DNA from: Methyloprofundus sp. | GTDB taxonomy: Bacteria; Pseudomonadota; Gammaproteobacteria; Methylococcales; Methylomonadaceae | Direction of reading: 5' to 3' | DNA length: 64,000 bases | Assembly (NCBI GenBank): GCA_012960135.1 | Contig: DUBW01000040.1 | Coordinates: 185-64,184, forward strand | Shown: in pieces, positions 5,630 to 9,340 of the stretch | How positions within the stretch are numbered: the first letter of the stretch is position 1 | How the letters are laid out: each line of letters starts with the position of its first letter | Notes under the pieces: generated by a model | Database searches by the model: none | The model's input: the letters and a program-made list of their open reading frames with translations, nothing else | Told to the model about the DNA's origin: nothing | Made by a program: the position numbers and the translations under genes

Positions 5630-6341
5630 TATATTGTCTTTGTCTTATTGGAATATCAATTATTTTAGCCATTGCATATTTTGATTGATAGTCTCGTATG
5701 GGTGTCAAAGGGATAAGATGATAGCACCTTTTAATCGCTTTAATACCATAGGCAGCAACTCTTAGTTCCTGCTTTCTTGACTCTGCATGTTCAGAATTTA
5801 TTCGTGTTGTATCAAAATTGAACCCAGCAGCCACGTCAACTTCAAAGTTTAGTAAGCGCAACCAGTCTTCAATTCGTGTTCGACTAACCAGATCCGGAAA
5901 CCAGCGAGTATGCTTTTTTCTGCGCTTTATATATTGCAGGTTAATGTATATATTCCAGGGATTAAAGCTGAGAATAGTTAATTTACCTTCTGGCTTTAAA
6001 ATACGTTCAACTTCACGTAACACTCGGTGTTTATGTTGAGAAAATTCTAGTACATGCGGCAAAATAACCATATCTACCGACTCCGACTTAAACGGCAAGG
6101 CGATAGTCGACCCTCTGACTAGCTTGCTTTCGTAACATGAGTCCTGCTCGTCATCTAGGACATAAAATTGCTCATATAAACTACAATCTATAAAGTCGTT
6201 TTCCCACCCTAAAGCACCGATTTGGACAATAATCTGCTTACAACTCACAGTAATTGAGTGCTTCAAAAATGCTGTTTCCTGCTGTTGTAATATCTGTCCT
6301 TTCGTGGTGTCAAACCATTCATGTATTACCTTGCGATGCAT
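5616..6341 (-). CDS. class I SAM-dependent methyltransferase (YafS-like)
   Basis: [27 protein letters not shown]; usual position upstream of rnhA. Confidence 0.85.
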
Positions 6342-6386
6342 TTTCTTTACTCATATAAAAACAAGTAAATAACGATACCAGATTAC

Positions 6387-6548
6387 TAAGGAACCCGCAC
6401 GGAATAAGTTGAGCATCTGGCACAGGGTTTTTATTCGCATTCAAGGCATAGAATCAGGAGCATAGCTCGCTACGTAACAGTTTCCGCACCACAGAAGACG
6501 GATAAAAAGACAAGTCAGTTGCTTAAATTATTTCGTGCACGCTCCTAA
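6387..6548. repeat. ~162-bp palindromic MITE-like element
   Basis: Imperfect terminal IRs TAAGGAACCCGCACGGAATAA and TTATTTCGTGCACGCTCCTAA, plus an internal IR (TTTTTATTCG / CGGATAAAAA). Confidence 0.6.
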
Positions 6549-6579
6549 TGCAAATAAAGTAATTTTTATACCTCATGTC

Positions 6580-6729
6580 TTACCAGATAATTCCGACAGC
6601 AACAATTGACACCACAAAACATAGGGTCGCTAAGTCTTCTATGGCATGTAATAGCCAGTGCTGTTGATCCTGCATAATCATATCAATTCGATTGGTAATT
6701 TGATCTTGCATATGAATTTTATGTTGCAT
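6580..6729 (-). CDS. unannotated 49-aa protein with C-terminal TM helix, immediately downstream of lexA
   Basis: GGAG RBS 7 nt before ATG; MQHKIHMQDQITNRIDMIMQDQQHWLLHAIEDLATLCFVVSIVAVGIIW*; below the size range of the ORF track. Confidence 0.6.
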   Translation of the reverse strand: MQHKIHMQDQITNRIDMIMQDQQHWLLHAIEDLATLCFVVSIVAVGIIW

Positions 6730-6742
6730 TTTAGTTCTCCTA

Positions 6743-7369
6743 TTAATTAATATAACTACGCATTTGTCCGACTAAAACACCTTGTATTTCCACTTGTTCA
6801 GGTCTGTATTTCATAGCAGACATATTTGAATTCGCTGGAATGAGTAATGTTTCATGCGGGTATTGCTCAATAAACTTTAAAGTCGCCTCTGATTTCTCTA
6901 TTAAAGCGACGACAATTTCACCGTTACGTGCACAACTTCTTTGCTCAATAATGACCCAGTCACCGTCAAAAATCCCCTCCTCTATCATTGAGTCCCCTTT
7001 TACTTGCAGGATATAACAAGTCTTATCAGTTTTAATCTGCTCGGGAATATTAATATAACTAATTTGTTCAATTGCTTCTATCGGCCTACCTGCAGCTATA
7101 AAACCCACAAAAGGAGTTCCTGCCGACTCATCACTAGCTTGTAAATATTGCTTCGCCTGTTCCGTTAGCCTGATACCTTTTTGCTTGCGATCAGATGATT
7201 CAACCAGGCCTGCTTCAATCAGCGCTTTAATATGTTTATGTAACGACCCCCGTGAATTTAAACCCAGTGCACTACAGACCTCATCTAAGGTGGGTGGATA
7301 GGGAAAATCCTTGTGGTTATTGAGCAGAAATTCAAAAATATCCTGCTGTTTTCGCGTTAAACCATTCAT
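6743..7369 (-). CDS. lexA: LexA repressor
   Basis: wHTH (LTRKQQ..PPTLDE..LHKHI), cleavage site GFIAAG, catalytic Ser (GDSM) and Lys (ATLK); start placed at ATG 7369 after a GGAG RBS. Confidence 0.93.
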   Translation of the reverse strand: MNGLTRKQQDIFEFLLNNHKDFPYPPTLDEVCSALGLNSRGSLHKHIKALIEAGLVESSDRKQKGIRLTEQAKQYLQASDESAGTPFVGFIAAGRPIEAIEQISYINIPEQIKTDKTCYILQVKGDSMIEEGIFDGDWVIIEQRSCARNGEIVVALIEKSEATLKFIEQYPHETLLIPANSNMSAMKYRPEQVEIQGVLVGQMRSYIN

Positions 7370-7373
7370 TTCT

Positions 7374-7424
7374 GTTCTCCTTTTGTTTTGTTGCAAGTAT
7401 AGTAGGAGAACAAATAAAGAACAA
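7374..7424 (-). promoter_or_regulatory. lexA sigma70 promoter with GTTC-N7-GTTC-type operators
   Basis: Minus strand TTGTTC-N17-TATACT; perfect GTTC-tttattt-GTTC at 7408-7422 overlaps the -35; second near-match at 7374-7388 overlaps the RBS. Confidence 0.7.
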
Positions 7425-7570
7425 GGTTATTTTGCAATTTATTTATATTTTCCCTCAAACTATCCGTTATTGGCTTTATGAGTTAGCAACCCACTAATAA
7501 TATAGCCATGGTAAAATTATTTTATCTAGGCCCATTCACCTAATAATGCCTCATTACACGGATTTTTGAC

Positions 7571-9340
7571 TTGATACAGATTGATCTTTTAGCCGTCGCT
7601 TTAATACTTCCGTGTTCTTTATTTCTGCTCGCCAGCAATCGTTTTCCTGCCGACAGTATCTTATTGGGTGTGTTGAGTTTGTTACTTATTGGTGGCATAT
7701 TAACCCCCTCAGAAGCTCTCTCTGGATTTTCCAGCCCAGGCGTGGCAACCATCGCGGTACTCTATGTCACCGTGGCAGGATTGCGCGAAACAGGTGCTAT
7801 TGCATGGTTAGGTCGCCTGCTCCTGGGACGGCCTGCGAATATGTCTCTAGCATTGATACGTTTGCTGTTACCTGCCGCAACTATTAGTATGCTTATAAAC
7901 AACAGTCCTGTGGTTGCGATGTTTACCAGTGCAGTGCAAGACTGGAGTAAACGTAGTGGATATAGTGCTTCACATTTTCTATTACCGCTTAGTTATGCAT
8001 CCATCATGGGTGGAACCTGCACTCTGATCGGTACGAGTACCAACCTTGTTGTCGATAGTTTAATGCGCCAATCTGGTTATCCCGGCTTTGACTTATTTGC
8101 AATTGCTGCAGTTGGATTACCCATAACCATCGCTGGCTGCCTATATCTTATTGTTTTAGGACCCTATTTAATTTCGGAGCGTAAGGGAGCCATTGAGCAA
8201 TTCAGTGATGTTCGCGAATACCTGGTAGAAATGTTAGTGAAACCGAATTGTGAACTATCAGGGCAAACCATACAGGATGCTGGCCTGCGTCATTTACCCG
8301 GACTGTTTTTAATAGAAATCGTGCGCGATGGCGAAATTATTCCAGTTGTATCACCACAAACGGTTATTCATACTAATGACCGGTTGGTATTTGCGGGTGC
8401 AGTCGATTCAGTAGTTGAACTACGTCGTATCCGCGGTCTGGTGATTGCGACAGATCAGGTATTTAAACTGCAAGGACGTGATCATGAGCGGCGTATGTTT
8501 GAAGCTGTTATCTCTGCAGAAAGTCCGGTTGCCGGGCGTAATATACGCGAGGCTCGCTTTAGACATCGGTATAATGCCGTTATTTTGTCTATTGCCCGCA
8601 ATGGTTACCGCTTAAAAGGAAAAATTGGTGATATCGTGCTACAAGCCGGTGATACATTATTGCTCGAAGCACAAAAAGGATTTCTATTTAAATTTCGTAA
8701 TAGCCGGGATTTTTTGCTGGTTAGCCGATTAGAAAACTCCCAAAATCTACGTCATAATCGTGCCTCCTGGGCGATTGGCATCATGGTCTTAATGGTCATA
8801 CTTATCATTAGCGGCACTATGAATATACTATCCGCTGCTGTGTTAGCTGCCGGTACTATGTTGATTAGTGGCTGTTTAAATATGGAAATTGCGCGTACTA
8901 GTATCGACTATAAAGTGTTACTTGTGATTGCCTGTGCCTATGGACTGGGAACGGCAGTACAAAAAGTGGGGCTTGCCGATTTGCTTGCTGCCCAGGGCCT
9001 GTTAATTGCTAATGGTAATCCTCTAATACTGCTGGCAATAGTCTATATTGCCACTGCATTATTAACCGAAACGATTACCAATAACGCAGCCGCTATTGTC
9101 ATGTTCCCTATCGCCATGAGTGGTGCGCAAAGCCTGGATGTCAACACAGCACCCTTTGCTGTTGCCGTCATGATTGCCGCTTCTGCCAGTTTCGTGACCC
9201 CCACGGGCTATCAAACCAACCTAATGGTCTTTGGCCCTGGAGGATATCGCTTTAGCGACTATGTAAAACTAGGCCTGCCACTCAGTCTATTAGTTGCCTG
9301 TATAGCGCTGTGGATTATTCCTCAGGTATGGTCATTTTAA
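7571..9340 (+). CDS. SLC13 family permease with TrkA-C domains (possible sulfate/carboxylate transporter)
   Basis: GFSS..V.TIA, INNSPVV, GGTCTLIGTSTNL, two RCK-C-like soluble domains, TPTGYQTNLMV. Confidence 0.9.
   Translation: MIQIDLLAVALILPCSLFLLASNRFPADSILLGVLSLLLIGGILTPSEALSGFSSPGVATIAVLYVTVAGLRETGAIAWLGRLLLGRPANMSLALIRLLLPAATISMLINNSPVVAMFTSAVQDWSKRSGYSASHFLLPLSYASIMGGTCTLIGTSTNLVVDSLMRQSGYPGFDLFAIAAVGLPITIAGCLYLIVLGPYLISERKGAIEQFSDVREYLVEMLVKPNCELSGQTIQDAGLRHLPGLFLIEIVRDGEIIPVVSPQTVIHTNDRLVFAGAVDSVVELRRIRGLVIATDQVFKLQGRDHERRMFEAVISAESPVAGRNIREARFRHRYNAVILSIARNGYRLKGKIGDIVLQAGDTLLLEAQKGFLFKFRNSRDFLLVSRLENSQNLRHNRASWAIGIMVLMVILIISGTMNILSAAVLAAGTMLISGCLNMEIARTSIDYKVLLVIACAYGLGTAVQKVGLADLLAAQGLLIANGNPLILLAIVYIATALLTETITNNAAAIVMFPIAMSGAQSLDVNTAPFAVAVMIAASASFVTPTGYQTNLMVFGPGGYRFSDYVKLGLPLSLLVACIALWIIPQVWSF

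What the first reader, a model, noticed from the sequence alone, without database searches (positions are those of the whole stretch)
6580..6729. Hidden 49-aa membrane protein behind lexA: candidate SOS division inhibitor
Seen: a strong RBS, a start 13 nt after the lexA stop, a polar N-terminus and a C-terminal TM (LATLCFVVSIVAVGIIW). A GTTG-N7-GTTC near-box (6723-6737) overlaps its RBS and start, mirroring the layout at lexA. Known: sulA follows lexA in Pseudomonas, and several non-SulA SOS division inhibitors (SidA, SosA, YneA) are small membrane proteins. Inference: a possible new functional analogue.
Basis: partly seen in the sequence, partly recalled or inferred. Interest (0 to 1): 0.65.

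Follow-up and report, generated by a model that had tools for sequence, protein, structure and literature searches.

The report
LexA-coupled small membrane protein family
The 49-codon frame behind lexA is a real, conserved gene for a small membrane-anchored protein that travels with an unusual LexA repressor in methane-oxidising bacteria and seems to be nearly the only thing that repressor controls, so it is a good but untested candidate for a new DNA-damage effector such as a cell-division brake.

Summary
The ORF at 6580-6729 (-) is real. It starts 13 nt after the lexA stop, behind a GGAGAA ribosome-binding site, and ends in a hydrophobic helix.

It defines an undescribed family. The signature is an N-terminal [IV]HMQDQ[VI]xNR[IV]xxIM motif, a variable linker, and a C-terminal transmembrane helix ending G-x-x-W. 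The family has about 72 clusters among 1.8 billion proteins and no Pfam, NCBIfam, PHROG, PADLOC or PDB match. It is under purifying selection (median dN/dS 0.13).

In 41 related genomes it occurs in exactly the 24 that carry this LexA type, almost always directly downstream of lexA. Copies that stand alone (divergent from umuD, on plasmids, or in a distant GC-rich gammaproteobacterium) carry their own GTTC-N7-GTTC operator. LexA control is therefore well supported by comparison, but not by expression data.

In this genus the only strong operators lie at the lexA promoter, and recA has none. SulA is absent. The division-inhibitor function is plausible (about 45%) but untested. The rivals are a membrane toxin or a LexA/RecA/Pol V feedback factor.

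The parts
6580..6729 (-). Small ORF (49 aa plus stop). N-terminal conserved motif IHMQDQITNRIDMIM (residues 5-19), variable linker, C-terminal hydrophobic helix LATLCFVVSIVAVGIIW.
   Evidence: Homologues. Codon-level selection. AlphaFold2 gives one helix over residues 3-48, pLDDT 80.
6735..6740 (-). Ribosome-binding site GGAGAA, 5 nt before the ATG. Conserved as G(G/A)GAA in relatives.
6723..6737 (+). Judged to be a coincidence of the RBS and codons 1-3.
   Evidence: 4.7 bits; not conserved.
6743..7369 (-). lexA (208 aa). It carries an Ala-Gly cleavage site (IAAGRP), a GDSM serine and a TLK lysine. Its recognition helix reads SRGSLHKHIKAL.
   Evidence: Pfam; sequence. It is the only LexA homologue in the genome.
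7408..7422 (-). LexA operator 1, GTTCTTTATTTGTTC. It overlaps the -35 element (TTGTTC, 7424-7419) and the 17-nt spacer of the lexA promoter. The -10 element is TATACT at 7401-7396.
   Evidence: 26.6 bits. Conserved in all relatives examined.
7374..7388 (+). LexA operator 2 in inverted orientation, GTTCTCCTTTTGTTT, lying over the lexA RBS.
   Evidence: 26.8 bits. More distant relatives have a perfect GAAC-N7-GAAC here.
6386..6548 (.). A roughly 165-nt dispersed repeat inserted just downstream of the small ORF. It is not part of the operon's function but explains the long gap to the next gene.
   Evidence: 31 matching segments elsewhere in the genome, about 13 of them spanning most of the element at 77-89% identity. 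Close relatives have only about 75 nt here.

Best explanation
The ORF encodes a small membrane-anchored protein. It is co-transcribed with lexA from the lexA promoter and is therefore repressed by LexA bound to two GTTC-N7-GTTC operators.

Proposed sequence of events: DNA damage activates RecA, LexA cleaves itself, and the operon is derepressed. The 49-aa protein then inserts into the inner membrane through its C-terminal helix. All Lys and Arg residues lie on the N-terminal side, so the N-terminus is probably cytoplasmic. Its invariant N-terminal helix (H6 M7 Q8 D9 Q10 N13 R14 M19) binds a partner at the membrane. The most likely partner is a divisome component, which would delay cell division until LexA re-accumulates.

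What is shown here by sequence and comparison: the gene is real, it lies in the lexA operon, the operators exist, it co-occurs with this LexA type, and it is under selection.

What is inferred: induction by damage, the topology, and above all the division target.

My odds: real protein-coding gene 0.97; LexA-controlled 0.85; acts as a division or growth brake 0.45.
For: Gene and operon:
- The gap after lexA is 13 nt, with no terminator-like site in 6200-7600.
- The lexA-small pair recurs with gaps of -4 to 23 nt in most loci.

Co-occurrence:
- 24 of 24 genomes with this LexA type have the small gene, and 0 of 17 without it do.

Independent operators at copies not next to lexA. Each has a GTTC-N7-GTTC box 50-80 nt upstream:
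- L037, beside a RepA-like gene and iterons.
- L049, L054, L055, L056 and the Methylotuvimicrobium alcaliphilum 20Z plasmid, all divergent from umuD.
- L120 and L121, in a GC-rich gammaproteobacterium of a family outside those sampled from this order, with the same two-box promoter.

Selection on the protein.

The conserved polar N-terminal motif combined with a variable membrane helix argues for a specific binding partner.

No SulA in the 41 genomes.

Precedent: small SOS division inhibitors sit next to the repressor gene in other lineages. SidA and DidA are small single-pass membrane proteins.
Against: - There is no expression, proteomic or phenotypic evidence.
- There is no sequence or profile similarity to any known division inhibitor.
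- Adjacency to lexA is explained trivially by co-inheritance of an operon.
- The module is dispensable. It is absent from 8 of the 24 other sampled genomes of the genus, three of them 90% or more complete.
- It sometimes lies on plasmids, which fits an accessory or selfish function at least as well as a core checkpoint.
- Several copies pair with umuDC, which hints at a link to Pol V instead.
- The SulA search detected only E. coli among its control genomes, so divergent SulA-like proteins could have been missed.
Confidence: 0.45

Rival explanations
1. SOS-induced membrane toxin or persistence factor, working like TisB or DinQ. After LexA cleavage the peptide oligomerises in the inner membrane, lowers the proton-motive force and arrests growth. 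LexA plays the part of a labile, transcription-level 'antitoxin'.
For: - Small size, a single hydrophobic helix and LexA control.
- Operon layout with an autorepressor upstream and a small effector downstream.
- Patchy, dispensable and plasmid-borne distribution.
- The regulon consists almost only of this operon.
Against: - The most conserved part is the polar N-terminal motif, not the membrane helix.
- The helix has no conserved charged or polar pore-lining residues, only G46 and W49.
- No antisense RNA or known RNA family was found.
- No PADLOC or PHROG match.
- Up to five copies sit in one genome, which is awkward for a potent toxin.
Confidence: 0.2
2. Feedback factor of the damage circuit itself. 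The N-terminal helix binds LexA, RecA filaments or UmuD/UmuC at the membrane, and so tunes repression, cleavage or Pol V availability. Functional analogies are DdrR with UmuDAb, phage GIL01 gp7 with LexA, and DinI with RecA.
For: - Strict co-occurrence with one LexA clade.
- Recurrent divergent pairing with umuD or umuDC, sharing one operator.
- Small LexA- or UmuDAb-binding co-regulators exist (titles and abstracts of PMC4551915 and PMC11332147; DdrR).
Against: - A membrane anchor is not a feature of the known co-regulators, as far as I recall.
- The window's genome has umuDC elsewhere (contig C41) without the small gene or a GTTC box.
- Co-occurrence follows from operon linkage alone.
Confidence: 0.2
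3. The small gene has its own LexA operator over its RBS and start codon, which would give a second layer of repression.
For: GTTGCATTTTAGTTC is present at 6723-6737. The closest relatives keep GAACTAAAATGCAAC. lexA's own second box also lies over an RBS and has one mismatch.
Against: It scores 4.7 bits against about 27 for the real boxes. One-mismatch matches are at chance frequency. The site is lost in most relatives that still keep the gene.
Confidence: 0.05
4. Chance ORF or non-coding conserved spacer.
For: It is only 49 codons long, in a 42% G+C genome. There is no family match.
Against: It is intact in more than 40 loci down to 33% identity. There are synonymous changes at invariant residues and dN/dS of about 0.13. 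The RBS is conserved, and gene callers predict it in public data.
Confidence: 0.02

Closest known systems
SidA and DidA of Caulobacter crescentus (small inner-membrane, damage-induced division inhibitors)
   Same: Tiny single-pass membrane proteins. SidA is 29 aa and induced by LexA cleavage; DidA is 71 aa (PMC4211646). The LexA operator here is of the same GTTC-N7-GTTC type that I recall for Alphaproteobacteria.
   Different: No sequence similarity was detectable. This family has a conserved, roughly 20-residue polar N-terminal motif that a 29-aa SidA cannot hold. It is encoded in the lexA operon. Its target is unknown, whereas SidA binds FtsW and DidA binds FtsN.
SulA, as in the Pseudomonas lexA-sulA operon and E. 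coli
   Same: The same genomic slot, directly downstream of lexA (from my own knowledge for Pseudomonas). It would be the SOS division brake in a gammaproteobacterium.
   Different: SulA is a soluble protein of about 160-170 aa that binds FtsZ. The ORF gives no Pfam PF03846 match and no SulA is present in 41 related genomes. This protein is 49 aa and membrane-anchored.
YneA, SosA, ChiZ and DivS (Gram-positive SOS division inhibitors next to lexA) and DdrR of Acinetobacter
   Same: Small, lineage-restricted proteins encoded next to the S24 repressor gene. The stand-alone copies divergent from umuD mirror the ddrR-umuDAb layout (YneA-FtsW paper PMC13396833).
   Different: Those genes are divergently transcribed rather than co-transcribed. 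The Gram-positive ones have an N-terminal anchor with an extracellular domain, as I recall. DdrR is restricted to Acinetobacter according to that paper's abstract. Here the anchor is C-terminal with essentially no residues beyond it.
TisB and DinQ (LexA-controlled type I toxins of E. coli)
   Same: LexA-controlled peptides of 27-50 aa with one hydrophobic helix.
   Different: Those are controlled by antisense RNAs and are conserved mainly in the helix. Here no antisense RNA is evident, and conservation is concentrated in the soluble N-terminal motif.

Membership tests
SulA (Pfam PF03846) | Sequence match to the SulA domain | tested here: not met
   No Pfam hit for the ORF at E <= 0.01. PF03846 is absent from all 41 related genomes, while the E. 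coli control is detected.
Small membrane-bound SOS division inhibitors (functional class: SidA, YneA, SosA, ChiZ, DivS) | Transcription controlled by LexA or the SOS response | tested here: inconclusive
   The operon with lexA and the operators at independent copies argue strongly for it. No expression data could be obtained.
Small membrane-bound SOS division inhibitors (functional class) | A single transmembrane segment in a small protein | tested here: met
   Hydropathy of L33-W49 is about 2.7. AlphaFold2 predicts a continuous helix with pLDDT 88-93 over the C-terminal 20 residues. The feature is conserved in the family.
Small membrane-bound SOS division inhibitors (functional class) | Expression blocks septation and loss impairs damage-induced filamentation | not testable with these tools
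   Needs overexpression and deletion experiments.
YneA-type inhibitors | Extracellular LysM domain | tested here: not met
   No Pfam domain at all. There are no residues beyond the membrane helix.
Type I toxin-antitoxin (TisB/IstR, DinQ/AgrB) | A cis- or trans-encoded antisense RNA controlling the toxin mRNA | tested here: inconclusive
   No Rfam match in 6200-7600 at E <= 1. No conserved opposite-strand promoter was seen. Novel sRNAs cannot be excluded.
LexA (the upstream gene) | LexA_DNA_bind and Peptidase_S24 domains, an Ala-Gly cleavage site, a Ser/Lys dyad, and autoregulatory operators | tested here: met
   Pfam E-values 5e-12 and 2e-27. IAAGRP, GDSM and TLK are present in the sequence. 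Two conserved boxes lie at its promoter.
Known phage or defence proteins (PHROGs, PADLOC) | Profile match | tested here: not met
   No PADLOC hit. Only scattered PHROG hits, the best at E = 0.004 and covering at most 3 of 28 members. No relatives in IMG/VR or in GenBank phages.

The most novel reading that the evidence does not exclude
The lexA-small pair is a self-contained, partly mobile DNA-damage switch. A LexA with an alphaproteobacterial-type operator has, in this genus, essentially one regulated output: a tail-anchored 49-aa protein. That protein's invariant HMQDQ-x2-NR helix would define a new class of SOS effector, either a division inhibitor with a cytoplasmic, membrane-tethered mode of action or a membrane-located feedback regulator of LexA, RecA or Pol V. 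The class would be unrelated to SulA, SidA, YneA, TisB or DdrR.
Probability: 0.35. Interest if true: 0.75.

Novelty: new variant of a known kind. Interest (0 to 1): 0.62.

Why it matters
SOS-induced division inhibitors are non-homologous from lineage to lineage and are unknown for most Gammaproteobacteria that lack SulA. I found no description of this family in the databases or in the literature I could search.

The family is strictly tied to a non-canonical LexA clade. In Methyloprofundus it appears to be the only clear output of that LexA, which makes it an unusually clean system for asking what a minimal SOS circuit is for.

Members also occur in genetically tractable laboratory methanotrophs, namely the Methylotuvimicrobium alcaliphilum 20Z plasmid and M. 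buryatense 5G. The hypothesis is therefore directly testable.

It also shows how small genes can be under-described: where it is annotated at all it is only 'hypothetical protein'.

Tried and rejected
- **Homology to known families:** Pfam, NCBIfam, PHROGs, PADLOC and PDB sequences gave nothing meaningful. No fold search was run, because the model is a single helix.
- **Phage origin:** there are no relatives in IMG/VR or in GenBank phages.
rejected as a functional operator.
- **A wider SOS regulon:** a position-weight-matrix scan of the whole genome, plus pattern scans of four related genomes and M. buryatense, found strong boxes only at lexA-small and umuDC-small loci. The remaining matches lie inside coding regions at control frequency.
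- **recA:** its promoter is conserved whether or not the genome has this LexA, and it carries neither a GTTC-type nor a CTGT-N8-ACAG box.
- **Obligatory link to umuDC:** rejected for this genome. Its umuDC lies on another contig without the small gene or a box.
- **Start at Met7 instead of Met1:** rejected, because I5 and H6 are conserved with synonymous variation and the RBS precedes Met1.
- **Earlier notes of this scan:** none on the protein itself.

Full report
**1. Observation**

On the minus strand, lexA runs from 7369 to 6743. It has Pfam LexA_DNA_bind and Peptidase_S24 domains, an Ala-Gly site in IAAGRP, a GDSM serine and a TLK lysine.

Thirteen bases after its TAA stop, and 5 nt after a GGAGAA site (6740-6735), an ATG at 6729 opens a 49-codon frame that ends at 6580. 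The product is MQHKIHMQDQITNRIDMIMQDQQHWLLHAIEDLATLCFVVSIVAVGIIW. It has a polar N-terminal 30 residues and a 17-residue hydrophobic C-terminus with nothing beyond it. No terminator-like site lies anywhere in 6200-7600, and there is no Rfam match there.

**2. The ORF is a real gene**

A six-frame search of 41 related genomes found an intact homologue in 23 at E below 1e-3. A divergent 24th, MSKPIYIEDQIKNRM..., turned up on inspection. Named records place the window among Methyloprofundus and Bathymodiolus methanotrophic symbionts in the Methylococcales.

Alignments A1 and A2 show an invariant core of M1, H6, M7, Q8, D9, Q10, R14, M19, G46 and W49. I5 and N13 are nearly invariant. The linker varies and carries a 12-residue insertion in one clade. 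The hydrophobic tail varies in sequence but is always present.

The invariant residues are encoded by several synonymous codons: R14 by six, G46 by four, and H6, Q8, D9 and Q10 by two each. Pairwise dN/dS runs from 0.02 to 0.4 with a median of 0.13, while synonymous sites approach saturation. Selection therefore acts on the protein, and translation starts at Met1, because I5 and H6 are conserved and the RBS precedes Met1.

Gene callers already predict the protein in public data, but where it is named it is only 'hypothetical protein'. A profile search of 1.84 billion representative proteins found just 72 clusters, all 42-155 aa long. Nearly all show the same motif-linker-helix plan. There is no match in Pfam, NCBIfam, PADLOC or PDB sequences, and only scattered insignificant PHROG hits. 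Phage collections hold no relative.

**3. Linkage to LexA**

- In 23 of the first 24 loci the gene directly follows lexA. The gap is mostly 9-23 nt and once a 4-nt overlap.
- The same holds for additional loci and for two distant family members looked up by identity. One of these has the layout umuC-umuD <> lexA-small-SRAP.
- Larger gaps of 76-172 nt occur in three lineages. In one of them the gap is an inserted dispersed repeat.
- Across the 41 genomes, the LexA type of this window (56% identity or more) is present in 24, and these are exactly the 24 with the small gene.
- Five further genomes carry only a distant LexA homologue (32-45% identity), and twelve show no LexA match. None of these 17 has the small gene.
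- The flanking genes differ between clades. They are CitMHS and methyltransferase-rnhA here, and folE-dusA in other families. The pair itself stays intact.

**4. The operator, and the key test**

All relatives share a lexA promoter of the form TTGTTCTYTWTTTGTTCTC-N-TATAYT. This is a direct repeat, GTTC-N7-GTTC, overlapping the -35 element and the spacer. A second, inverted copy lies over the lexA RBS. In the window these are at 7408-7422 and 7374-7388. This agrees with an earlier first-reader note on the same genome (e1-5224581), and I verified it here by comparison.

Copies of the small gene that are not next to lexA still carry such a box 50-80 nt upstream:

- A plasmid-like contig with iterons and a RepA-like gene, where a lexA-type promoter and RBS are fused directly to the small gene (L037).
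- Three chromosomal copies in Methylotuvimicrobium buryatense 5G and related strains, and the copy on the conjugative plasmid of M. alcaliphilum 20Z. In each case the gene is divergent from umuD and shares the box with it.
- A GC-rich gammaproteobacterium of a family outside those sampled from this order, with the complete two-box promoter (L120 and L121).

Because these contexts are independent, the association with the operator cannot be explained by operon hitch-hiking alone. LexA control is the best-supported functional statement I can make, at about 0.85.

**5.

GTTGCATTTTAGTTC is present at 6723-6737, but three things count against it:

- One-mismatch matches to GTTC-N7-GTTC occur 46 times in the window against 36 +/- 6 expected.
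- On a matrix built from 37 distinct true boxes it scores 4.7 bits, against 26.6 and 26.8 for the two promoter boxes.
- Most relatives read GGAGAATGACCATGCAAC at that place.

It is made of the RBS (GGAGAAC) and the Met-Gln codons (ATGCAAC). I do not count it as an operator.

**6. What else this LexA controls**

- In the window's genome the two lexA boxes are the only strong matrix hits. The next best score is 19.9 bits, and the sites I inspected lie inside coding regions.
- Exact TGTTC-N6-TGTTC matches in four related genomes occur at about the frequency of the reversed control pattern. Outside lexA, those I inspected fall in coding sequence.
- In M. buryatense, all four boxes with a T-rich spacer belong to lexA-small or umuDC-small loci.
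- The recA promoter is conserved in Methyloprofundus whether or not the genome has this LexA. It carries neither a GTTC-type nor a CTGT-N8-ACAG box.
- The window's own umuDC lies on another contig without a box.

In this genus the circuit therefore appears to have one output besides LexA itself, the small protein. Weak sites cannot be excluded, and the assembly is about 90% complete.

The module is also dispensable and partly mobile. It is missing from 8 of the 24 other sampled genomes of the genus, three of them 90% or more complete. These genomes keep methyltransferase-rnhA, and one has an IS-type transposase in the module's place. The module also occurs on plasmids or plasmid-like contigs.

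**7. Mechanism**

AlphaFold2 with the family alignment gives one continuous helix over residues 3-48, with mean pLDDT 80 and the highest confidence over the C-terminal 20 residues. All Lys and Arg residues lie N-terminal to the hydrophobic stretch, and nothing follows it. The positive-inside rule therefore favours a tail-anchored protein with a cytoplasmic N-terminus. The acidic juxtamembrane region leaves the opposite topology possible.

Conservation is concentrated in a polar, amphipathic N-terminal segment rather than in the membrane helix. This points to a specific binding partner rather than a generic pore.

Three further observations bear on function. No SulA was found in 41 genomes, with the caveat that the control detected only E. 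coli. Small division inhibitors are known to be encoded beside the SOS repressor gene, as stated in the abstract of PMC13689564. SidA and DidA are small single-pass membrane proteins (PMC4211646).

On that basis I rank the explanations as follows:

| Explanation | Odds |
|---|---|
| Damage-induced division or growth brake | about 0.45 |
| TisB-like membrane toxin | about 0.2 |
| Feedback factor acting on LexA, RecA or Pol V | about 0.2 |
| Function not yet imagined | the remainder |

The feedback idea is prompted by the repeated pairing with umuD and the strict tie to one LexA clade.

**8. Comparison and novelty**

The protein is not a member of SulA, it is not YneA-like (no LysM domain), and it belongs to no catalogued family. 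It resembles the functional class of small SOS-induced membrane proteins in its regulation, size and single helix.

It differs from that class in three respects. It is co-transcribed with lexA, it is C-terminally anchored, and it carries a conserved soluble motif.

Full-text searches found no description of the family or of an SOS system in Methylococcales. I rate it a new variant of a known kind.

Its value lies in offering a candidate SOS effector for SulA-less Gammaproteobacteria, in a minimal and experimentally tractable circuit.

Noticed in passing
window 7374-7424: The lexA promoter carries two conserved GTTC-N7-GTTC (TGTTCT-N5-TGTTCT) boxes, the operator type I recall from Alphaproteobacteria, in a gammaproteobacterial order. 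recA has no such box and the regulon looks minimal. Several genomes of the order also carry a second, distant LexA homologue (30-33% identity).
   Followed up: partly
window 6386-6548: A roughly 165-nt dispersed repeat lies just after the small ORF. It has 31 matching segments elsewhere in this genome, about 13 of them spanning most of the element at 77-89% identity. The same element is inserted between lexA and the small gene in genome G012 (L020, L042), where it splits the pair by 172 nt. Its relation to the 300-nt element noted by earlier agents was not examined.
   Followed up: partly
own genome contig C41:18123-20026 (outside the window): The umuD here has an N-terminal extension of about 55 residues that is rich in Gly, Arg and Lys (MTETIQSKRGGSRPGAGRKKG...), ahead of the S24 domain. 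There is no GTTC box upstream. It may be a self-regulating UmuD of the UmuDAb kind.
   Followed up: no
L037:2200-2500 and L035: Plasmid-like contigs of Methyloprofundus MAGs carry five tandem iterons (CATCGTAGTTTTCCTAACG) and a RepA-like gene. One carries lexA-small. The other carries only the small gene, fused to a lexA-type promoter and RBS as if lexA had been deleted precisely.
   Followed up: partly
L049, L050, L051, L054, L055 and L057 (Methylotuvimicrobium and a Methylobacter MAG): M. buryatense 5G has four to five copies of the small gene. Two are identical in protein sequence and sit in lexA-small pairs; the others are divergent from umuDC. Some copies are truncated before the membrane helix (34 aa) or frameshifted, and the lexA beside L057 is broken.
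   Followed up: partly
L125:654-1346 (genome G002): In a close relative that lacks lexA-small, an IS-type transposase gene sits immediately upstream of the conserved methyltransferase-rnhA pair, where the module lies in the window. This suggests loss mediated by an insertion sequence.
   Followed up: no
L060:3166-3837: In one metagenomic member the small gene is followed by an SRAP (YedK-like, SOS-response-associated peptidase) gene, and lexA is preceded by a divergent umuDC. Together they form a compact damage-response island.
   Followed up: no
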